From: an uncultured bacterium
Lineage (GTDB): Bacteria > Bdellovibrionota > Bacteriovoracia > Bacteriovoracales > CAZZBM01
Direction: 5' to 3'
Assembly (NCBI GenBank): GCA_964652255.1
Contig: CAZZBM010000001.1
Location: 530,985-594,984 of the forward strand
DNA: 64,000 nucleotides
Shown here: in pieces, positions 15,318 through 52,340 of the stretch
Layout: every line of letters starts with the position of its first letter
How positions within the stretch are numbered: the stretch's first letter is position 1
The notes under the pieces: model-generated
Databases searched by the model: none
Told to the model about the DNA's origin: nothing
The model's input: the letters and a program-made list of their open reading frames with translations, nothing else
Translations under genes and position numbers: made by a program

Positions 15318-15394
15318 TGGCGCAACCGGTACGATTCGAACGTACGACCTTCTGATTCGTAGTCAGATGCTCTATCCAACTAAGCTACGGCTGC
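15318..15394 (-). tRNA. tRNA-Arg (anticodon ACG), CCA encoded
   Basis: Hand-folded cloverleaf on the reverse strand: acceptor GCAGCCG/CGGTTGC, D arm GCTTAGTTGGATAGAGC, anticodon stem TCTGA/TCAGA with loop CTACGAA, T arm GTACG-TTCGAAT-CGTAC, 3' GCCA. Confidence 0.93.
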
Positions 15395-17127: not shown

Positions 17128-18077
17128 ACTCTATTTATCTTTTCTATTTTTTTTAAAAGAAAATTTTCATTCAATTCTCCATTTTTAATAGCTTGTTCAA
17201 TGATTTTATTAACTTGATTAACAAGATTTGGTTGAAATTCTTCTGGATATTTTACTCTCATTTTTCCACTAGAAGCAAGGTCATTTTGAGAAAATAAAAG
17301 AAGATCATGTCCTGATTTTAAAGAGAATATTACTCTTTCTTTTAAGGAGTAATTTAAAAGTGCTCCCATATGAAGATCATCAGTAATAAGTAGCCCAGGA
17401 TAATTTTTTAAATGCTGCTTAATAAAATCTTTATCAAAAGTAATAGGTAAAGCATTTTCTTTTAAAAGAACATGAGCAGAAAGAATACAAGGGCTTTTTA
17501 GTTTTAAAAAAGGTTCTAATTCTTTTTTTTGATAGTTTTCTAAATAAAAAAGTCCTTGGTGTGAATCTTGATTGAGAGTAGCACTTCCATGACCTGGAAA
17601 ATGTTTAATGCAGGAGAGAATTCCTACTTCATTGTAAGCTTTAATAAAATCTTCAGCTATAGAAATAATTTTTTTAGTATCATCAGAAAACGCTCTATTT
17701 TTCATAATAGAGTTTTTGTCCCAAAGATCAACTAGAGGAGAATAATTAAGATTAATTCCAAGATTTTTTAAAAATAAAGCTTGTTCTTTAAAGTAAGCAT
17801 AGCGTTCAGGAGAGTTCATTTTGGAAACAAGAGTAGGATCTTTAAAAGAATAATGATCTTTTAATCTGTTTACTGAAGGGCTTTCAAAATCTGTAGAAAG
17901 AATTTGATTCTTTGGAAATTGAGCTAAAAAATTTTTAATTTCTTCTAGATTTTTGCTCTTAAAATCCGAATAAAAAAAGATATAACCAGCTTGGTTGCTG
18001 TTGATTTCTTCCATAAAAGAAGTAACACAAAGTTTTTCAAACATATTCTTAGTTATAGCTTTTTTTTTTACAATCAT
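17088..18077 (-). CDS. nagZ: Glycoside hydrolase family 3 beta-N-acetylglucosaminidase (NagZ-like)
   Basis: Motifs IKHFPGHGSATLNQDSH and ITDDLHMGAL. No signal peptide. The true start may be an internal Met (MFEKL or MEEIN). Confidence 0.8.
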   Translation of the reverse strand: MIVKKKAITKNMFEKLCVTSFMEEINSNQAGYIFFYSDFKSKNLEEIKNFLAQFPKNQILSTDFESPSVNRLKDHYSFKDPTLVSKMNSPERYAYFKEQALFLKNLGINLNYSPLVDLWDKNSIMKNRAFSDDTKKIISIAEDFIKAYNEVGILSCIKHFPGHGSATLNQDSHQGLFYLENYQKKELEPFLKLKSPCILSAHVLLKENALPITFDKDFIKQHLKNYPGLLITDDLHMGALLNYSLKERVIFSLKSGHDLLLFSQNDLASSGKMRVKYPEEFQPNLVNQVNKIIEQAIKNGELNENFLLKKIEKINRVQSNIERSSLSKV

Positions 18078-22172: not shown

Positions 22173-23231
22173 TTAATAAAAATCAAAACTTAAAGAATAA
22201 GCTCCTTTTTCTTCGAATTTCAAAGACACTTGCCTATCAGTAGAGCCTTTATTGAAAATATATGGAAAAGAAGGTGATAAGTTGCTGAAGTTTGTAGTCT
22301 CGTACTCATATTGAATTGTTGGAGGAGAGAACTTAAAATTTAATGATATATCTTTAGGTTTTTTGTCTCCAACGTCTTTAATTGTGAAGCCACTAGGATG
22401 ACCTGAATCTCTATATAGATCGATATATGTCCTAAGTGTCTTGGAAGAATTTTTGTATAGCTTAAAAATAATACTAATATACAAATATGTGTTTATAAAA
22501 AAAGTTGAATAATATAAAGCAATTTTTAGTTTTTCTAATGAAGGAAAAAGTTGAGGTTGTTCAATATCTATTAGATAGCTTGAAGCAGATATACTATTTT
22601 TTTTCAATTTCAATTTTATTTAATATATAAAAATCAATGGATAATAACTTTAAAGAAGAAAAAAAAGTAGAATTAGTTTTTTTATCAAAAAGTAATTCAG
22701 TACTTAATATGTTATAAAAACGACGTTTTGGTGTAATTTGTTGAAAACAAGAAGAATCTTTTAAATAGATTGTTAGAAACAATTTTTCTAGCTTGTTGAG
22801 TTTGCTTATATCTTTAAAAAGTGCTAAATATTCATCGGAATTATCTATATATACGCTAAATGCAAGTGTATTAAAATAGAAGATATGTTCCATGGGGTTG
22901 AGTAAAGAATATAAATTCTTTTTATCTTTTAAAACTTTTGAATAAGATAAAATTCCATTAAACTTAGTTGAGTCATTATTAATTATTTTTTTATATCTTC
23001 TTCAAAGCTTGCTACATCTGAAAATATATTTTGAAAATATGATGCTATCGTGGGCTCAAGTACATATGAATTAGAGTCAGAAGGAGCTTAAAATGACAAA
23101 AAGTCAGAATTTGAGAAACCAAAAGTAGATGTTTCATTAGAAAAAGTAATGTAGGGATATGTGAATGTAAACGGAGTATTATCTTCGTTATTTGAAAATA
23201 ATATAAAAAAGATATTAAAAAAAATTATTAT
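22173..23231 (-). pseudogene. Decayed secreted-protein gene: no ATG, one in-frame TAA, one frameshift in A8
   Basis: Track ORFs 22594-22893 and 22173-22613 join if the A8 tract (plus-strand T8 at 22597-22604) loses one base. The frame of 22594-22893 continues upstream through TAA at 23090-23088 to a signal-peptide-like IIIFFNIFFILFS. That peptide begins at ATA (23231) 6 nt after AAGGA. Confidence 0.55.
22597..22604 (-). repeat. A8 (coding strand) homopolymer at a frame break
   Basis: Eight consecutive T on the plus strand, at the junction of two overlapping ORFs. Confidence 0.95.
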
Positions 23232-26088: not shown

Positions 26089-26323
26089 CTTGAACCAGAG
26101 GGATTTTAATAAGATTTTTTTTTCTTCTTGGAGCTAAATGAAGAAGAGGAATAGATTCTTTAACTTCATCTTTTCTAAGATGAAGATAATTTTTTTTAGA
26201 AACGATCATTTTAGCTGAGAGAGAATCTAAAAACTCTGTATAATGAACAATTTCTAAAAGATCTTCTTCTAGTTCTTGAGTTTTTTTGATCCCAGCTAGC
26301 TCAAATATTTTATCTATCTTCAT
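26081..26323 (-). CDS. gatC: Asp/Glu-tRNA(Asn/Gln) amidotransferase subunit C
   Basis: 80 aa, immediately upstream of and overlapping gatA. Weak sequence signal (LRKDE). Confidence 0.7.
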   Translation of the reverse strand: MKIDKIFELAGIKKTQELEEDLLEIVHYTEFLDSLSAKMIVSKKNYLHLRKDEVKESIPLLHLAPRRKKNLIKIPLVQDV

Positions 26324-30850: not shown

Positions 30851-32965
30851 ATGTCAAAGAAATCTTATCCTTGTCTTGTTGTTACTGATAATTATCTTCT
30901 ACCGAAAATGAAAAAAGAATTTTCATTTAAGAAAAAAGAATCTTTGGAAATTTTAAAAAAAACTGAAAAACATCTTGTTCTTCTTTATCGTGATCAAATA
31001 AAATCTATTCTTTGTGAGATTGTAAGAAAAGAAACAGATAAAGTCGTTTTGAAAGGGATTTCTTTTGTAGAAGTCTTAGATAAGAATAAAAACTTAGTTC
31101 AAGTTGAAGAGATTAAAGAAGAATATGAGTTAGCTTTAGGAGAAAAACTTCAAGGAGATCTTTTAAAACAATCTATTGTGGATCTTCTTATTCATGAAAA
31201 AAGTGAAGAACTTAGTCCACAACAAATTTTAGATTTAAGATCTATTGATAGTTTGTTTGATTTTTTTAATGAAACAGTTTCAAAGTTAAATCTTTCACCG
31301 GAGTTGGAAAAAAAATTTTTTAATGAAAAAAATATTATTAAAAAACTAAAGACTCTTCAAGAAAGTCTAGAAAAGAAAAATGATTCTTTACCAAGACTTT
31401 TTGAGTTTCATCCTTTTTTTTCACCTAGAAATAATCCTTATGAAGAAAAATTAATGAATAAAAAATTTACTTCTGAAGTGAAAGAAGAACTTTTAAAAGA
31501 AGCTAAAAAATTAGATCGCTTGCCTCAAGAATCACAAGAATCTTTTGTGATTAAGCAATATTTAGACTTTGTTCTTTCTCTTCCTTGGGGAAATTTAAAA
31601 GAAGGGGCATTGGATTTAAAAGAAATAGAAAAAAAATTTCATTTGAGTCACTATGGTTTAGATGAAGTCAAAGAAAGAATTTTGGACTATCTTTTTAGTT
31701 ATTCTTTAAAATTACAAAGTCCTATTCTTTGTTTAGTTGGTCCCTACGGAGTAGGGAAAACAACTTTTGTTCAAAACCTAGCTGAAGCTATTGATCGTCC
31801 TTTTGAAAAGATTAGTTTGGCTGGTTTGAGTGATGAAGCTGAAATTAGAGGTCATAGAAAAACTTATGTAGGTTCAATGCCAGGAAGAATTTTATCTCTT
31901 TTAAAAAAAGTTCAAGTAGACAATCCTGTTATTCTTCTTGATGAGGTTGATAAGGTAGCTAAACAAACTCGTGGTGATGTCTATGGAGCACTGTTAGAAT
32001 TACTGGATCCAAGTCAGCAGAGTCAATTTAGAGATCATTTTCTTGGTTTAGATTATGATCTTTCAAAAGTTTTATTTGTTTGTACAGCTAATCATATTGA
32101 AGATATCCCTAGAGCTTTAAAAGATAGAATGGAATTTATTTATTTAGAGGGATTTTCTTTAGAAGAAAAAAAGATTATTGCTCAAAACTATTTATTACCT
32201 AAAATTAGAAAGGAATACAAATTAAAAGATTTTGAATTTAGTCCTAAATTAATAGAAAAGATTATATTAAATTTAGATCAAGAATCAGGGGTAAGACAAT
32301 TAGAAAAATTTTTAAGATCATTTACAGAAAGGCAAATAAGAAAAAATTTTTTAGGTCCTTTTGAGGAACAAGATTTATTACCTTTTTTAAAGAAAAAAGA
32401 TCTTCCTCTTTTAGATCGTTATCCTGGTAGCTTTGATCTTTTAGCTTATACGCCCTATGGTGGGGTTCTTATTCCTTTAGAAGTTCTTCTTATTGATGGA
32501 ATGAAAATGGAACTTACTGGTGAAATTGGAGAAACTTTTAAGGAATCTATTAAGGTAGCTTATTCTTTAGTAAAACGTTCTTTAAAATCTTTAGGTTTAG
32601 TTGAAAATTTTTTTGATCAAAAAAGTTTTCATATTCATGTTCCTCTTATTCTTGGAGAAAAACAAGGTCCTAGTGGTGGTCTTCCTCTGTATGTTGCTAT
32701 GATTTCAAGCTTGATGAATAAATCTTTACCACAAGATTTAGTTATGAGTGCAGAATTGAGTCTTCAGGGTCAAATACTTCCTGTTGGAGGAATTAAAGAA
32801 AAACTATTGGCTGCTCAAAGAGCTGGAAAAAAAAGAGTTTTTCTTTCTGTTCATAATCAAAAAGATATTCCTCTAAATCTTGATTTAGAGGTTTATTTTT
32901 TTCATTCTATTCAAGAAGTTCTTTCTTTGCTATTCTTTGAAGAAAGAGAATTACAAGTCATATGA
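30851..32965 (+). CDS. lon: ATP-dependent Lon protease
   Basis: Walker A GPYGVGKTT, Walker B LLDEVDK, catalytic Ser in QGPSGG, and Lys in GGIKEKLLAAQRAG. Confidence 0.9.
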   Translation: MSKKSYPCLVVTDNYLLPKMKKEFSFKKKESLEILKKTEKHLVLLYRDQIKSILCEIVRKETDKVVLKGISFVEVLDKNKNLVQVEEIKEEYELALGEKLQGDLLKQSIVDLLIHEKSEELSPQQILDLRSIDSLFDFFNETVSKLNLSPELEKKFFNEKNIIKKLKTLQESLEKKNDSLPRLFEFHPFFSPRNNPYEEKLMNKKFTSEVKEELLKEAKKLDRLPQESQESFVIKQYLDFVLSLPWGNLKEGALDLKEIEKKFHLSHYGLDEVKERILDYLFSYSLKLQSPILCLVGPYGVGKTTFVQNLAEAIDRPFEKISLAGLSDEAEIRGHRKTYVGSMPGRILSLLKKVQVDNPVILLDEVDKVAKQTRGDVYGALLELLDPSQQSQFRDHFLGLDYDLSKVLFVCTANHIEDIPRALKDRMEFIYLEGFSLEEKKIIAQNYLLPKIRKEYKLKDFEFSPKLIEKIILNLDQESGVRQLEKFLRSFTERQIRKNFLGPFEEQDLLPFLKKKDLPLLDRYPGSFDLLAYTPYGGVLIPLEVLLIDGMKMELTGEIGETFKESIKVAYSLVKRSLKSLGLVENFFDQKSFHIHVPLILGEKQGPSGGLPLYVAMISSLMNKSLPQDLVMSAELSLQGQILPVGGIKEKLLAAQRAGKKRVFLSVHNQKDIPLNLDLEVYFFHSIQEVLSLLFFEERELQVI

Positions 32966-33746
32966 AACTTTATCTTGTTGGTGGGTCTGTAAGAGATCTT
33001 CTACTAAAAAAAAAATTCTAGATTTTGATTATACAGTAGTGAATTCTTTTGAAGAAGAATTTTTTAAACATGGATATAAAAAAAAAAGTGATTATTATCC
33101 AGTTTATCTTCATCCTAAGTATCCTCAAGTGACTTTAGCTTTAGCAAGAAAAGAAAAGTTATTAGATTTTTCTAAAAGATTATTTTCCTTTCAAATAAAA
33201 GATGTTTCTTTAGAAGAAGATCTTTTTAGAAGAGATTTTACTGTTAATGCAATAGCTTTTGGAAAAAAAATTATTGATCCTTATGGAGGGCTTCAAGATT
33301 TAAAAAAAAAACTACTGAAACCTTTAGGGATTCACTTTAAAGAAGATCCTTTAAGGTTTTTCAGAGCAGCTCGTTTTGCTGCTCAGCTAGATTTTGAATT
33401 AGATTTAAAAGAGACTTATTTTGGAGAAGTGAGTCTAGGAAAGCAAGAGGAAGAATTAAGAAAAGTGTTAAGTTTAAAAAAACCTCAAAAATTTTTTATT
33501 TTATCTTCAGAGTTAAAGATACCTTTTTTACATGTAGTAGAAAAAAAATTTTTAACAGGCCTTGAACAATTCTTAGGTTTTAACCAAAGAGTTATTCTTT
33601 TTAATTTTTTTTATCCTAAAAGTCCTATTTTTAAAAATAAAAAACAAGACCATCTTTTAAAAAAAATTTTAAGTGAAAACTCTTTACATAGTTTTGTTGA
33701 TCGTGAAGAATGGTTAAGGTTAAGATCTTTTTTATGGGTAAATTAA
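32962..33746 (+). CDS. cca: CCA-adding tRNA nucleotidyltransferase (short, no HD domain), reading frame broken in an A10 tract
   Basis: The ATG at 32962 overlaps the lon stop (ATGA) and encodes MKLYLVGGSVRDLLLKKK, then hits TAG at 33019. The track ORF (32937-33746) carries the rest in another frame (ILDFDYTVV...RRDFTVNA...EDPLRFFRAARFAA). One extra A in 33006-33015 joins them. Confidence 0.8.
33006..33015 (+). repeat. A10 homopolymer at the cca frame break
   Basis: Ten consecutive A read directly. Confidence 0.95.
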
Positions 33747-33883
33747 TTTTTTATTTTTTCTTTTATTTTTTATTATTCTCTTTTCCAGTTAAGGGGAAAC
33801 CTCTTTTTAATGTTTTACAAGAACATAGTCACTTTTATGTAGATCGATTTTATGAAAAAATCTTATCAAAAATCAATAATTAA
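33734..33883 (+). CDS. Possible small secreted protein (49 aa), below the track cutoff
   Basis: ATG at 33734. Encodes MGKLIFYFFFYFLLFSFPVKGKPLFNVLQEHSHFYVDRFYEKILSKINN with a hydrophobic N-terminus. No Shine-Dalgarno. Could be chance in AT-rich DNA. Confidence 0.2.
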   Translation: MGKLIFYFFFYFLLFSFPVKGKPLFNVLQEHSHFYVDRFYEKILSKINN

Positions 33884-33918
33884 GCTTTAATTTTAATGAA
33901 TCGATAACTCTTTTATGA
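33881..33918 (+). repeat. 38-nt upstream/start module, copy 1 (taagCtttaattttaatgaatcgataactcttttatga)
   Basis: Identical to 34806-34843 except for one base. Confidence 0.9.
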
Positions 33919-34808
33919 AATTATTATTATTATTATTATTATTTACAGCTTGTTCATCAGGGTCAACTTCTAGTTCTGTTGTTAGTTCTAGTGAATCTTT
34001 TTATAGTTTTAAGTATTTTGAAAATGATGCTTTAATATCTTCTGGAGCTGAATCAATTTTAAGTTTAAGCCAAAAAACAAGTGTTGTTATTTCTTTTCAA
34101 GATTATGTTCATATTTATATTAAACTAGATTTGAACAACCTGAATAGCCCTACCAACACTGTGACAAGTCCTTATGTGGCTAATATTGCTTATGCAGATC
34201 CTTTAATATGTTTAGATGGCGAAGACGGTTATGATCCTATTTATTCTGGAGCACCATTTACTATTCCTGAGGGGCTTACTGAGGAAGATATTCAATCTGG
34301 ATTCGCTGCCCATATTTTATCTTGTAAAAATTTTTTATTAGGTTCTATTCTTCCACTCTCACCAAAAGATCCTAGTACTTATTTATTAAAACCTAATATG
34401 TCCATTTTTAAAATGGATGGAACATTTTTAGATATCTCTGTGACAGGAACAATAAATTGGAGTCCATTAAGTGGATATCTTCATATTGACCCTTATAATC
34501 CTCAAACAGCTCAAGAAGAAAATTTAGAACTATTTGTTTACCTTAATTCTGGAGCTATTTTATTTGATGAACAACTTATTACATGTGAAGGATGTGCTAT
34601 GAGTATAGCGTTAGAAAATTCTCCTAATTTTTCCTACAATGATGTTGTATATAAAATTACCATTAATAGAACTAATAACTCTGAAAAAGGTGTTCTTACT
34701 ATCCCAGAAGGTGTTTTTCAAGATTCAGAGGGAAATAATTACTTAGGGTTTTATCCTTTGCATTTACCTTGGGGAGAACCAATTGTTAAATTTGCCCCAG
34801 AAATTTAA
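33915..34808 (+). CDS. Surface lipoprotein, paralog 1 of a tandem pair (C...P-E-G-x-F family)
   Basis: MKLLLLLLLFTACSSGSTSSS carries a lipobox and a Ser tether. Shares blocks with the N-terminal ~290 aa of the next gene (TGTINW, LITCEGCAMSIA vs LITIGNSCNMSIS, TIPEGVFQDSEGN vs EFAEGAFVNSED). Confidence 0.6.
   Translation: MKLLLLLLLFTACSSGSTSSSVVSSSESFYSFKYFENDALISSGAESILSLSQKTSVVISFQDYVHIYIKLDLNNLNSPTNTVTSPYVANIAYADPLICLDGEDGYDPIYSGAPFTIPEGLTEEDIQSGFAAHILSCKNFLLGSILPLSPKDPSTYLLKPNMSIFKMDGTFLDISVTGTINWSPLSGYLHIDPYNPQTAQEENLELFVYLNSGAILFDEQLITCEGCAMSIALENSPNFSYNDVVYKITINRTNNSEKGVLTIPEGVFQDSEGNNYLGFYPLHLPWGEPIVKFAPEI
33921..33941 (+). repeat. (TTA)7 trinucleotide repeat encoding Leu7 of the signal peptide
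   Basis: Seven exact TTA units in frame. Confidence 0.95.
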
Positions 34809-34843
34809 GTTTTAATTTTAATGAATCGATAACTCTTTTATGA
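34806..34843 (+). repeat. 38-nt upstream/start module, copy 2
   Basis: See 33881-33918. Confidence 0.9.
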
Positions 34844-34857
34844 GATTTTTATTATTA

Positions 34858-34864
34858 TTTTTTT
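34858..34864 (+). repeat. T7 homopolymer inside a signal-peptide coding region, at a frame break
   Basis: Seven consecutive T. With T8, the ATG at 34840 reads MRFLLLFFLSLVSCS in frame with the long ORF. Confidence 0.95.
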
Positions 34865-34868
34865 ATCC

Positions 34869-36545
34869 TTGGTGAGTTGTTCTTTAAGTAGCAACAATCA
34901 ATCTTTAAGTTCATCAAATACTTCTGAGGAATTATACAAGTTTTTTTATTATACTCAAAGTGGGGATTATCTAGGATCAAGCTCTAATCTTAGTGATTCT
35001 TTAGAATTAAACTCTGGTGGTTCAGCTAATATTTTTGTAGTTTTATCTGATTATGCACACATGACTATTTATCCTCCTTATGTTGAATCAACAAATTTTC
35101 AAGCTAATGCCAAACTTCCACAGTGCATGGATGGAGTCGTTGATACTGATAACCTAGAGTTCATCCCTGAATTGATGGAATATTTAGGAGGAGTGATGCC
35201 TCCAGTGTATGAAGGAGATTTTTCTTTACCTGATGGATTTACTGATCCAACTCCAGAAGAAAGACAATTAAATTTTATTCCTTGTAAAGTTTGGCTTTTT
35301 AGAGATTTTAAACCTATTGATGCTAGTGAATCATCTACTTTTAGTATTAAAAATACAGGTGTCTTTTTTGCTGATGGATCCAGTCCATCAATAGATTTTA
35401 CAGGGACCATTAATTGGGATGTTCTTGGAGGATTAACTACTTTAGAGACTTATCCTCAATATACCCAAAAACATGATCCTAATGGGACAGAGATTACTTT
35501 AACTTTTCAGCAAGGATTTAGATTATATGATGAAGACTTAATTACGATAGGAAATAGTTGTAATATGAGTATTTCTCCTAATGATAATGATTTTCATACA
35601 GAGTTTACTATTACAATTACTCCAAAGATTCCAACTGCATTATCTTCTTGTACTTTAGAGTTTGCCGAGGGAGCTTTTGTTAATAGTGAAGATGTTTCTT
35701 CTTTGCCTATTTCACCTATTGAAATTGATTGGGCTGATAGAATGTTTTTTACAGTGGAATTTCCTGAAGATCCAGTAAATAAGAATCCTCCTGTGGATCC
35801 AGTAAGTGTGATTAAAAAAATTCCTTATGGTGATTTAACTTGGAATGGAACAAATGTGATGTATGAAGGAGTACCTTATACTCCTACGACAACAAAAATA
35901 GAAGTAAATTTAATTCCAACTTATAGATCTATTGAAGAAGATAAGTTTGAACTGGCTACAGGTTTAATTGAATTTTTAGATGAGTCTAATTCAACAAATG
36001 TTATTGTCCCTGATGAAGAAGATTTTATTAATATTTTTGATGAAGATGGAGAATCAAATAAGATGACGTACTATTTAAATCCTATAGCATCTTTTCAGCA
36101 TATTATAGGTGATACTGCTCCTATCGATTTAACTTTTAAATTAGATTTTTTCACTGAAACTTTATCTTATGCTGGAGCTGAGATTGAAGTTGGTTCTCAA
36201 CCAACAGATCAAAAAAGTTTTTCTTGGAGTACACTGTTTGATATTAATAATGTTTTAAAAGGAGTTGATACAGGGTACACTTCAGGAACTACTCAAATAG
36301 TTAGGGTGATCTTACCTTTAGGTTCAAGTGTGGATACTGATTTAATAAGTACAACCTGTAATAGTATTCAATCTGCAACTAGTGTGGTTGGTAGTAACAA
36401 TATGGTTTTTGATATCATTGTTGAAAATCTAGTCGATGAAAACTGCACAGTTACCTTTGATAAAGGAGCCTTCATTGGCATAAACTATGATATTAAGTCT
36501 CAGGCTATTGCTCCTGTTGAAATTACTTTTACTGGAACTACCTAA
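34869..36545 (+). CDS. Large surface lipoprotein, paralog 2 (three C...G-A-F type modules). The canonical ATG at 34840 is out of frame by one base.
   Basis: The track ORF starts at TTG and reads MVSCSLSS, so only the lipobox Cys remains of a signal peptide. The homologous ATG with its upstream module lies at 34840. Confidence 0.6.
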   Translation: MVSCSLSSNNQSLSSSNTSEELYKFFYYTQSGDYLGSSSNLSDSLELNSGGSANIFVVLSDYAHMTIYPPYVESTNFQANAKLPQCMDGVVDTDNLEFIPELMEYLGGVMPPVYEGDFSLPDGFTDPTPEERQLNFIPCKVWLFRDFKPIDASESSTFSIKNTGVFFADGSSPSIDFTGTINWDVLGGLTTLETYPQYTQKHDPNGTEITLTFQQGFRLYDEDLITIGNSCNMSISPNDNDFHTEFTITITPKIPTALSSCTLEFAEGAFVNSEDVSSLPISPIEIDWADRMFFTVEFPEDPVNKNPPVDPVSVIKKIPYGDLTWNGTNVMYEGVPYTPTTTKIEVNLIPTYRSIEEDKFELATGLIEFLDESNSTNVIVPDEEDFINIFDEDGESNKMTYYLNPIASFQHIIGDTAPIDLTFKLDFFTETLSYAGAEIEVGSQPTDQKSFSWSTLFDINNVLKGVDTGYTSGTTQIVRVILPLGSSVDTDLISTTCNSIQSATSVVGSNNMVFDIIVENLVDENCTVTFDKGAFIGINYDIKSQAIAPVEITFTGTT

Positions 36546-52264: not shown

Positions 52265-52340
52265 GGGGGTGTAGCTCAGCTGGAAGAGCATCTGATTTGC
52301 ATTCAGAGGGTCGCAGGTTCGACTCCTGTCATCTCCACCA
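52265..52340 (+). tRNA. tRNA-Ala (anticodon UGC), CCA encoded
   Basis: Hand-folded: acceptor GGGGGTG/CATCTCC with the G3:U70 Ala identity pair, D arm GCTCAGCTGGAAGAGC, anticodon loop TTTGCAT, T arm GCAGG-TTCGACT-CCTGT, 3' ACCA. Confidence 0.93.

What the first reader, a model, noticed from the sequence alone, without database searches (positions are those of the whole stretch)
32962..33021. Housekeeping cca gene is frameshifted in an A10 tract although its start is ATGA-coupled to lon
ATG 32962 overlaps the lon TGA and encodes the canonical CCA-enzyme N-terminus MKLYLVGGSVRDLLLKKK, then runs into TAG at 33019. The rest of the enzyme is in the adjacent frame (ILDFDYTVV with the DxD catalytic pair, RRDFTVNA, EDPLRFFRAARFAA). 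A11 instead of A10 (33006-33015) restores one ORF. The track's alternative N-terminus (MKKENYKSYETLSCWWVCKRSSTKKK) is read from the lon coding region and is implausible. Both tRNA genes in this window encode their own CCA, so cca may only be needed for repair and could tolerate reduced expression. Alternatively, expression depends on transcriptional or translational slippage on the A run.
Basis: partly seen in the sequence, partly recalled or inferred. Interest (0 to 1): 0.6.

Follow-up and report, generated by a model that had tools for sequence, protein, structure and literature searches.

The report
Conserved poly-A frameshift in cca gene
The gene for the enzyme that repairs the CCA ends of tRNAs is split by a one-base frameshift in a run of ten A's, and because the same split is kept under selection in every known relative, it is most likely a built-in slippage site that sets low expression, not a sequencing error or a dead gene.

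Summary
ATG 32962 overlaps the lon stop (ATGA) and encodes MKLYLVGGSVRDLLLKKKF, then stops at TAG 33019. The rest of a class II tRNA nucleotidyltransferase lies in the -1 frame, to 33746. One extra A in the A10 run (33006-33015) gives a 261-aa protein with canonical motif spacing.

The new result is that the frameshift is conserved. I recovered the lon-cca junction from 12 further samples assembled by three other pipelines. These represent three more lineages, with 45-86% cca amino-acid identity among the four. All have ATGA, an A10 or A11 run and the same need for +1 nt or a -1 shift. No member of the clade has an intact gene.

Evidence that the gene is functional:
- dN/dS in the joined frame is 0.15-0.22, against 0.12-0.15 for lon.
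- Substitution periodicity moves by one base at the tract.
- Three of the four lineages have no start codon that could bypass the shift.
- All 26 other long coding-strand A runs in the window are in frame.

No conserved downstream RNA structure or upstream SD-like element exists. The best reading is therefore obligatory recoding on the homopolymer. RNA-polymerase slippage adding one A is the most likely route, with ribosomal -1 slippage on A_AAA_AAA possibly contributing. This is a new member of a known kind of recoding.

The parts
30851..32965 (+). lon (ATP-dependent protease, 704 aa). Its TGA stop overlaps the cca start.
   Evidence: ORF. Pfam Lon_C 6.5e-42 and AAA 1.4e-22. Orthologues P0122 and P0123 have the same downstream cca.
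32962..32965 (+). ATGA start/stop overlap, a signature of translational coupling between lon and cca.
   Evidence: Sequence. Identical ATGA overlap in all 12 related contigs.
32962..33021 (+). cca segment 1, zero frame: MKLYLVGGSVRDLLLKKKF followed by TAG. It carries the GGxVRD half of catalytic motif A.
   Evidence: The N-terminal 18 residues are nearly invariant in the four lineages.
33006..33015 (+). A10 slippery tract, the site of the required +1-nt (mRNA) or -1 (ribosome) shift. It is in phase as ctA_AAA_AAA_AAA.
   Evidence: Conserved as A10 or A11 in every relative.
33006..33746 (+). cca segment 2, -1 frame: KKKILDFDY... to the stop. It carries DxD (D21, D23), RRDFTVNA, DPYGGLQDL and EDPLRFFRAARF, then a short helical C-terminal part.
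   Evidence: AlphaFold2 model of the joined protein has pLDDT 89.4. All 44 significant Foldseek PDB hits are class II nucleotidyltransferases.
33078..33087 (+). Second A10 run inside cca, in frame (KKK). Not conserved in length in relatives (A7 there).
33302..33311 (+). Third A10 run inside cca, in frame (DLKKKLL). Not conserved in relatives (DLEKR/DLEKK/DLEKN).
15318..15394 (-). tRNA-Arg(ACG) with genomically encoded 3' CCA. Context: cca is probably needed for repair only.
52265..52340 (+). tRNA-Ala(UGC) with genomically encoded 3' CCA (context).

Best explanation
In this uncultured, AT-rich, small-genome bacterial clade, cca is a functional gene whose only route to a complete enzyme is recoding at a conserved A10/A11 tract, 15 codons after a start codon that overlaps the lon stop.

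Proposed mechanism:
1. Ribosomes finishing lon re-initiate at the overlapping ATG. This step is inferred from the conserved ATGA.
2. Most of them make a 19-residue dead-end peptide.
3. A minority make the full 261-aa class II tRNA nucleotidyltransferase. This happens because the mRNA carries one extra A, added by RNA polymerase slipping backwards on the T10 template. I judge this the main route.
4. Alternatively, the ribosome slips -1 on A_AAA_AAA. I judge this a likely minor contributor. Both routes give the same protein, ...LLLKKKILDFDY....

The net effect is a fixed, low output of a tRNA 3'-end repair enzyme from an operon shared with an abundant protease.

Shown here: the frameshift, its conservation, purifying selection in the joined frame, the absence of any bypassing start codon, and the absence of other cis-elements. 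Inferred: which polymerase or ribosome event does the shift, its efficiency, and the purpose (down-tuning).
For: 1. Conservation. There are 13 junctions from 13 samples and 4 assembly pipelines, covering 4 lineages. All have ATGA, an A10 or A11 run and the same +1-nt requirement. Every clade member in the 5.8-billion-protein database is a truncated ORF call of 228-230 or 269 aa; none is intact.

2. Selection. dN/dS in the joined frame is 0.15-0.22 at dS 0.47-0.89, against 0.12-0.15 for lon in the same pairs. Before the tract, variable sites peak at the third position of the ATG frame (2/1/5). After it, they peak at the third position of the -1 frame (34/108/67 by ATG-frame phase, chi-square p = 2.7e-9).

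3. No bypass. L006, L015 and L007 have no start codon in the -1 frame upstream of the DxD motif, and L006 and L015 have a stop 15 nt before the tract. The first later start would delete motif A.

4. The joined protein is a sound enzyme. Its motif spacing equals that of the outgroups.

5. Only the homopolymer is conserved as a signal. The consensus downstream fold is -3.15 kcal/mol, single-sequence z-scores run from +0.77 to -1.62, and there is no conserved SD-like element upstream. The run is kept at 10 bases or more although -1 PRF needs only 7.

6. Precedent.
- Single-base insertions prevail at A/T runs in bacterial transcripts, and the rate rises exponentially with run length (PMC5574713).
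- An A11 run in Citrobacter tssM1 gives about 20-25% transcriptional frameshifting (PMC4256274).
- Frameshifts in poly-A tracts are conserved in Blochmannia and Buchnera and are rescued by transcriptional slippage (PMC3017870).
- Runs of A with n > 7 are treated as programmed transcriptional realignment sites, and A10 dnaX genes are inferred to use it (PMC3711429).
Against: - No RNA or protein data exist, so the product has not been observed.
- The tract is also a perfect in-phase A_AAA_AAA heptamer. Iterated AAA codons make bacterial ribosomes slide (PMC4363877), so sequence alone cannot apportion the two routes.
- Conservation of AAA-AAA-AAA is weak evidence by itself. AAA is 85% of Lys codons here, and 16 of 26 KKK triplets in the window are all-A.
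- Slippage at the two other A10 runs in the window's cca would spoil part of the corrected mRNAs.
- The enzyme is unusually short (261 aa against about 350-410) and falls below the NCBIfam equivalog cut-offs. CCA-adding activity, as opposed to A-adding or another activity, is not established.
- The rest of the genome could not be checked for a second cca.
Confidence: 0.62

Rival explanations
1. Programmed -1 ribosomal frameshifting is the main route. Two tRNA-Lys on A_AAA_AAA re-pair one base back, or the ribosome slides on the poly-A. Transcripts are mostly faithful A10.
For: The heptamer is in the correct X_XXY_YYZ phase in all four lineages. Ribosomes slide on iterated AAA codons in E. coli (PMC4363877). 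A_AAA_AAA is a recognised -1 PRF motif (PMC3711429).
Against: There is no conserved downstream hairpin or pseudoknot and no upstream SD-like stimulator. The nearby zero-frame stop is not conserved; L015 reads on for 8 more codons. The run is held at 10-11 bases although 7 would suffice. The phase is forced by the conserved LLLKKK peptide, so it is not independent evidence.
Confidence: 0.24
2. DNA-level phase variation. The tract switches between OFF (A10) and ON (A11) by replication slippage, and only a subpopulation of cells makes the enzyme.
For: Homopolymers of this length are hypermutable, and poly-A phase variation is known (discussed in PMC3711429).
Against: All 13 assemblies from 13 samples show the OFF phase, and no ON allele was seen. 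The A10-to-A11 difference between lineages is explained by base substitutions that keep the same frame offset. The gene is a cytoplasmic housekeeping or repair enzyme, not a contingency locus. Minor ON subpopulations cannot be excluded from consensus assemblies.
Confidence: 0.05
3. The gene is a decaying pseudogene, tolerated because tRNA genes encode their own CCA.
For: Both tRNA genes in the window encode CCA. The gene is short and rich in A10 runs. Homopolymer indels are typical first steps of gene erosion in reduced genomes (PMC3017870).
Against: The same single lesion is shared by lineages only 45% identical in protein, with no second lesion in any of them. dN/dS is 0.15-0.22, and codon periodicity is maintained in both segments. 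All catalytic motifs are intact.
Confidence: 0.03
4. Sequencing or assembly error at a homopolymer; the true sequence is A11.
For: Homopolymers are error-prone on some platforms.
Against: The Logan re-assembly gives an identical sequence. The same frame offset is seen in 12 other samples assembled by Logan, ENA/MEGAHIT and JGI pipelines. All 26 other long A runs in the window are in frame.
Confidence: 0.01

Closest known systems
Conserved poly(A)-tract frameshifts rescued by transcriptional slippage in the insect endosymbionts Buchnera and Blochmannia (Tamas et al. 2008 and Wernegreen et al. 2010, as cited in PMC3017870)
   Same: An AT-rich reduced genome. A single indel inside a run of 9 or more A's in an otherwise intact housekeeping gene. 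The lesion is shared between lineages with no further decay, and reduced but non-zero expression is expected.
   Different: A different gene (cca is not among the Blochmannia cases listed in PMC3017870) and a different, uncultured clade, with relatives in activated-sludge metagenomes. Conservation here spans much deeper divergence: 45% cca and about 50% Lon identity, with dS saturated. The site sits 15 codons from a start that is translationally coupled to lon.
Programmed transcriptional realignment in cellular genes: Thermus thermophilus dnaX (A9), A10 dnaX genes (PMC3711429), and Citrobacter rodentium tssM1 (A11, about 20-25%; PMC4256274)
   Same: A homopolymeric A run of 9-11 is the only cis-element, and adding extra A's to the mRNA restores or changes the frame.
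   Different: In dnaX and tssM both products are functional and their ratio matters. Here the zero-frame product is a 19-residue peptide with no evident function, so recoding acts as an expression throttle rather than a two-product device.
-1 programmed ribosomal frameshifting on A_AAA_AAG/A (E. coli dnaX, IS3-family transposases)
   Same: An in-phase A-rich heptamer and a -1 direction.
   Different: The defining stimulators (downstream hairpin or pseudoknot, upstream SD-like element) were looked for and not found. The run is longer than PRF needs.
Class II tRNA nucleotidyltransferases (bacterial CCA-adding enzymes, e.g. PDB 6ibp/7otr, 1miv; A-adding 1vfg/4wbz)
   Same: The head domain carries GGxVRD...DxD, RRD and EDxxR motifs. 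Foldseek TM (query-normalised) is 0.6-0.74.
   Different: The protein is about 100-150 residues shorter. It has no HD domain and no PF12627 hit, and it falls below the NCBIfam equivalog cut-offs. Relatives have QDPLR or HDPLR in place of EDPLR.

Membership tests
Programmed transcriptional realignment (RNA-polymerase slippage) site | Homopolymeric A or T run of about 8-9 or more at the exact point of the frame transition | tested here: met
   A10 at 33006-33015. Relatives have A10 or A11.
Programmed transcriptional realignment (RNA-polymerase slippage) site | The frame transition and slippery run are conserved between species, with purifying selection on both ORF segments | tested here: met
   Four lineages. 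dN/dS is 0.15-0.22, and substitution periodicity shifts at the tract.
Programmed transcriptional realignment (RNA-polymerase slippage) site | The mRNA population is heterogeneous in run length (extra A's) while the DNA is homogeneous | not testable with these tools
   No reads or transcriptomes are available.
-1 programmed ribosomal frameshift site | X_XXY_YYZ heptamer in zero-frame phase | tested here: met
   ctA_AAA_AAA in the window and ttA_AAA_AAA in relatives.
-1 programmed ribosomal frameshift site | A stimulatory element: a downstream stem-loop or pseudoknot 5-9 nt away, or an upstream SD-like sequence | tested here: not met
   RNAalifold consensus is -3.15 kcal/mol with weak pairs starting about 38 nt into the alignment. 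Single-sequence z-scores are not significant. The upstream sequence is not SD-like and not conserved beyond the coding constraint.
Phase-variable (contingency) locus | Both ON and OFF tract lengths are found among strains or samples | tested here: not met
   13 of 13 assemblies are in the OFF phase. Minority alleles are not visible in consensus sequences.
Pseudogene | Relaxed constraint (dN/dS near 1) and accumulation of further lesions | tested here: not met
   There is a single shared lesion only.
Class II tRNA nucleotidyltransferase (CCA-adding/repair enzyme) | Pol-beta-type head domain with motif A (GGxVRD...DxD), motif B (RRD) and motif D (EDxxR) | tested here: met
   G7 G8 S V R11 D, D21-F-D23, R90 R91 D92 and E128 D P L R132. 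PF01743 scores 69.5 bits against a cut-off of 23.
Class II tRNA nucleotidyltransferase (CCA-adding/repair enzyme) | Full-length match to a curated equivalog model, including the body/tail RNA-binding region | tested here: not met
   The best NCBIfam model, NF008137, scores 140.5 bits against a cut-off of 451 and matches only positions 1-151 of 409. There is no PF12627 hit. The fold search still places the whole model among CCA, A-adding and PAP enzymes.
Class II tRNA nucleotidyltransferase (CCA-adding/repair enzyme) | Adds or repairs CCA on tRNA 3' ends | not testable with these tools
   This needs an enzyme assay.
Translationally coupled gene pair | Overlapping stop and start (ATGA) conserved among relatives | tested here: met
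   All 13 junctions. The coupling itself is inferred.

The most novel reading that the evidence does not exclude
The tract is a regulatory device rather than only a fixed throttle, so that cca output responds to cell state. There are two possible routes. First, RNA-polymerase slippage at the end of the A run could rise when the next nucleotide (UTP) is scarce. Second, ribosomal -1 slippage or sliding on the Lys codons could rise when charged tRNAs are scarce. The second route would include the case where tRNA 3' ends are damaged, which would make this an autoregulatory loop for tRNA 3'-end repair, analogous in logic to the prfB +1 frameshift. It would be the first recoding-based feedback found for a tRNA-processing enzyme. 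It would also be one of very few ancient recoded housekeeping genes besides prfB and dnaX.
Probability: 0.1. Interest if true: 0.85.

Novelty: new member of a known kind. Interest (0 to 1): 0.62.

Why it matters
Conserved recoding sites in non-mobile cellular genes are rare; prfB and dnaX are the classic cases, with a handful of others. This adds a tRNA-maturation enzyme to that list. It shows a homopolymer frameshift held in place across lineages that have diverged to 45-52% protein identity, which is far deeper than the endosymbiont examples.

It also has practical consequences. Every automatic annotation of this clade mis-calls cca, either as a 228-230-aa N-terminally truncated protein or as a 269-aa protein with a spurious N-terminus read from lon. 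Metabolic reconstructions would therefore score the enzyme as broken or catalytically dead.

The locus is a compact, well-defined test case of about 60 nt for separating transcriptional from ribosomal slippage on poly-A. It also points to an unusually small (261-aa) class II nucleotidyltransferase that may define the minimal architecture needed for CCA repair.

Tried and rejected
- Two scans of GTDB representative genomes, one with the repaired protein and one with the four-lineage alignment, found no relative. The clade could not be named.
- The JGI metagenome scan with the single protein found only a 28%-identical enzyme (L005), which was not used.
- Look-up of the window's Lon in the contig index failed. 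Accession-number searches in the literature were empty or spurious. The source organism and the rest of its genome remain unknown.
- A scan for other homopolymer frameshifts flagged 18060-18069, 22597-22604 and 26115-26123. The first and third are ordinary adjacent genes: lipoprotein with a NagZ-like gene, and gatC with gatA. The second is unresolved: it is not a DUF481 orthologue and has no Pfam hit.
- A downstream frameshift-stimulating structure was sought by alignment folding and by single-sequence folding with shuffles. Nothing conserved or significant was found.
- A terminator-like hairpin inside the 3' end of lon (32870-32891) could have been an attenuator ahead of cca. It is absent from L006 and L007, so it is not part of the conserved mechanism.
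It was re-run with database sequences.
- Conservation of the all-A Lys codons was considered as evidence for selection on the run. It is too weak on its own, because AAA is 85% of Lys codons.
Full report
**1. The observation**

- lon is a 704-aa protein with Lon_C and AAA domains. It ends with TGA at 32963-32965, and ATG 32962-32964 overlaps that stop.
- From this ATG the frame reads MKLYLVGGSVRDLLLKKKF and stops at TAG 33019-33021.
- The run 33006-33015 is ten A's.
- The -1 frame continues KKKILDFDYTVV...RRDFTVNA...DPYGGLQDL...EDPLRFFRAARF... to a stop at 33746.
- Adding one A gives a single 261-codon ORF. It hits Pfam PolyA_pol over residues 3-119 (E = 4.5e-19) and the N-terminal 146-151 positions of NCBIfam CCA-enzyme models.
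- phmmer against the PDB aligns it to CCA-adding enzymes with no gap across the junction: 'lylvggsvrdlllkkkildfd' against 'ayivggavrdlllgktphdvd'.
- Intact outgroup enzymes have the same spacing, e.g. RDLLL-KKPEK-DKD in P0003.
- Both tRNA genes in the window end in an encoded CCA.

**2. It is not an artefact**

A Logan re-assembly of SRA run SRR12404947 is base-for-base identical to window 32395-33915. The window is 29.5% G+C. Outside cca it has 26 coding-strand A runs of 9-10 bases in 54.7 kb of ORFs, and all are in frame. A scan for the frameshift signature at other long runs found only ordinary gene junctions and one unresolved case.

**3. The key new result: the frameshift is conserved**

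The cca protein has no close relative in the 5.8-billion-protein database except its own mis-called ORF. The neighbouring Lon, however, has two relatives at 50-52% identity. Their contigs show the same gene order, gatCAB-uvrD-glmS-glmU-x-lon-cca. Together with cluster members they gave 12 further lon-cca junctions from 12 other samples:
- Logan assemblies L006-L014 and L016;
- an ENA activated-sludge assembly, L015;
- a JGI metagenome, L017.

Every junction has the ATGA overlap and an N-terminus of the form MK[LIF][YF]L[VIT]GGSVR[DN]LLLKKK. Every one has an A10 run (window, L007, L016, L017) or an A11 run (L006 type, L015), and all need the same +1 nt or -1 shift to reach [IN][LS]DFDY....

The A10-to-A11 difference is explained by base substitutions (ATT CTA to AAT TTA) that leave the frame offset unchanged. 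A profile search with the four joined proteins found only truncated ORF calls (228, 229, 230 and 269 aa) for this clade. The next hits are separated by a large score gap, from 400 bits or more down to 188 bits. No intact allele is on record.

**4. The gene is under selection in the joined frame**

- The four lineages are 45% (window against the rest), 74% and 86% identical in the joined protein, along its whole length.
- Nei-Gojobori dN/dS is 0.15-0.22 for the informative pairs (dS 0.47-0.89). lon in the same pairs gives 0.12-0.15.
- Among L006, L015 and L007, variable sites before the tract fall 2/1/5 on codon positions 1/2/3 of the ATG frame.
- After the tract they fall 34/108/67 by the same phase, so the peak is now the third position of the -1 frame (chi-square p = 2.7e-9). 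The reading frame seen by selection therefore moves by one base at the tract.

**5. Nothing bypasses the shift**

In L006, L015 and L007 the -1 frame has no ATG, GTG or TTG upstream of the tract. In L006 and L015 it has a TAG 15 nt before the tract. The TTG at 32937 that gives the window's 269-aa 'alternative' ORF is unique to the window. The first start after the tract (codon 27 or 34) would remove GGxVRD and DxD. The window's joined protein has no internal Met at all.

**6. The product**

The AlphaFold2 model of the joined protein is confident: mean pLDDT 89.4, pTM 0.84, and 96-97 over residues 1-40, which span the junction. All 44 significant Foldseek hits in the PDB are class II CCA-adding, A-adding or poly(A) polymerase structures, with query-normalised TM-scores up to 0.74.

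The enzyme is compact. It is 261-263 aa against about 350-410 in the outgroups, with no HD domain and no PF12627 hit, and it scores below the NCBIfam equivalog cut-offs. The short C-terminal region is nevertheless conserved within the clade. Whether it adds full CCA or only the terminal A cannot be decided here.

**7. Mechanism**

The only conserved cis-element is the homopolymer.
- The downstream consensus fold is -3.15 kcal/mol, and single sequences do not fold better than shuffles.
- Upstream conservation is explained by the GGSVR(D/N)LLL peptide and is not SD-like.
- The nearby zero-frame TAG is not conserved in L015.
- The run is kept at 10-11 A's, longer than the 7 a ribosomal heptamer needs.

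The published record points the same way:
- Single-base insertions predominate at A/T runs in bacterial transcripts and rise exponentially with run length (PMC5574713).
- An A11 run gives about 20-25% transcriptional frameshifting in Citrobacter tssM1 (PMC4256274).
- Poly-A frameshifts in Blochmannia and Buchnera are conserved and rescued this way, with roughly 30% corrected transcripts quoted (PMC3017870).
- Runs of A with n > 7 are the hallmark of programmed transcriptional realignment (PMC3711429).

All four lineages here need an insertion, which is the favoured error direction. I therefore rank RNA-polymerase slippage first. The tract is also an in-phase A_AAA_AAA, and ribosomes slide on iterated AAA codons (PMC4363877). 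A ribosomal contribution, or even dominance, therefore cannot be excluded from sequence, and both routes give the same protein.

Purpose is inference. cca is probably needed only for repair, because the tRNA genes seen encode CCA. Its start is coupled to an abundant protease gene, so a slippage requirement would hold its output at a small fixed fraction of lon's.

**8. Comparison and novelty**

This works like the conserved poly-A frameshifts of insect endosymbionts and like programmed transcriptional realignment in dnaX and tssM. It differs in four ways:
- the gene: no paper in the searchable library combines CCA-adding enzyme or tRNA nucleotidyltransferase with programmed frameshifting or transcriptional slippage, and neither term appears in the main text of the GeneTack survey;
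- the clade: uncultured, and absent from GTDB representatives;
- the depth of conservation;
- the absence of a functional zero-frame product.

It is a new member of a known kind.

**9. Limits**

- There are no reads, RNA or protein data.
- Only 64 kb of its genome was seen, so a second cca cannot be excluded, though there is none in the window.
- L008-L014 are near-identical to L006. They count as independent samples, not independent lineages.
- dN/dS for comparisons with the window itself is saturated (dS of about 0.7-1.3) and is not informative.

Noticed in passing
window 22173-23010 (- strand); T8 at 22597-22604: A 146-aa ORF (TTG start) is preceded by an open stretch of about 135 codons in another frame. 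That stretch ends in TAG immediately after an A8 run ('...NKIEIEKK*' then 'LKLKKNSISASS...'). This could be a second homopolymer frameshift, needing -1 nt, or two small ORFs. The joined protein has no Pfam hit and is not the DUF481 gene found at this position in L006.
   Followed up: partly
window 33710-33883 (+); L006 12943-13101; L007 3265-3423: A small ORF of 52-57 aa, hydrophobic and then '...PVKGKPLF..L..(F/H)(T/S)HFYV(E/D)..YEK', is conserved directly downstream of cca in all lineages. In the window it overlaps the cca 3' end by 37 nt. It has no Pfam hit.
   Followed up: partly
window 33078-33087 and 33302-33311: The 0.8-kb cca gene holds three of the window's six plus-strand A runs of 10 bases or more. 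The two in-frame ones are not conserved in relatives (A7, or interrupted there). If RNA polymerase slips at them too, part of the corrected mRNA would be spoiled again.
   Followed up: partly
window 32870-32891 (+), inside the 3' end of lon: An intrinsic-terminator-like hairpin (9-bp stem, CCTCTAAATC/TTGA/TTTAGAGG, then a T-rich tail) lies about 70 nt before the cca start. It is absent from L006 and L007, so it is not part of the conserved arrangement.
   Followed up: yes
window 30851-32965; P0122, P0123: Lon of this clade (704-709 aa) has AAA and Lon_C domains but gives no hit to the usual N-terminal substrate-binding domain, PF02190. The more distant Lon homologues in the same search all carry it.
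   Followed up: no
window 32962-33746 (joined): The clade's tRNA nucleotidyltransferase is only 261-263 aa. It has head, neck and a short helical C-terminus, with no HD domain and no PF12627 hit. Relatives have QDPLR or HDPLR instead of the EDPLR nucleotide-template motif. It may be a minimal or A-adding-only enzyme.
   Followed up: partly
window 33915-36545 (+): Two lipoprotein-like genes (297 and 558 aa; MKLLLLLLLFTACSS... signal) lie between cca and the conserved downstream genes. They are absent at this position in L006 and L007, where the 163-aa gene and the Rieske/cytochrome b cluster follow directly.
   Followed up: no
whole window; contig of 745,960 bp reported for P0001 and P0121: The source appears to be a small, 29.5% G+C genome with very dense coding. 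It has no representative in the GTDB species set, and its only relatives are in wastewater or activated-sludge and other metagenome assemblies. This looks like an undescribed reduced-genome lineage. Its nearest cca homologues are MAGs labelled Oligoflexia or Gammaproteobacteria.
   Followed up: partly
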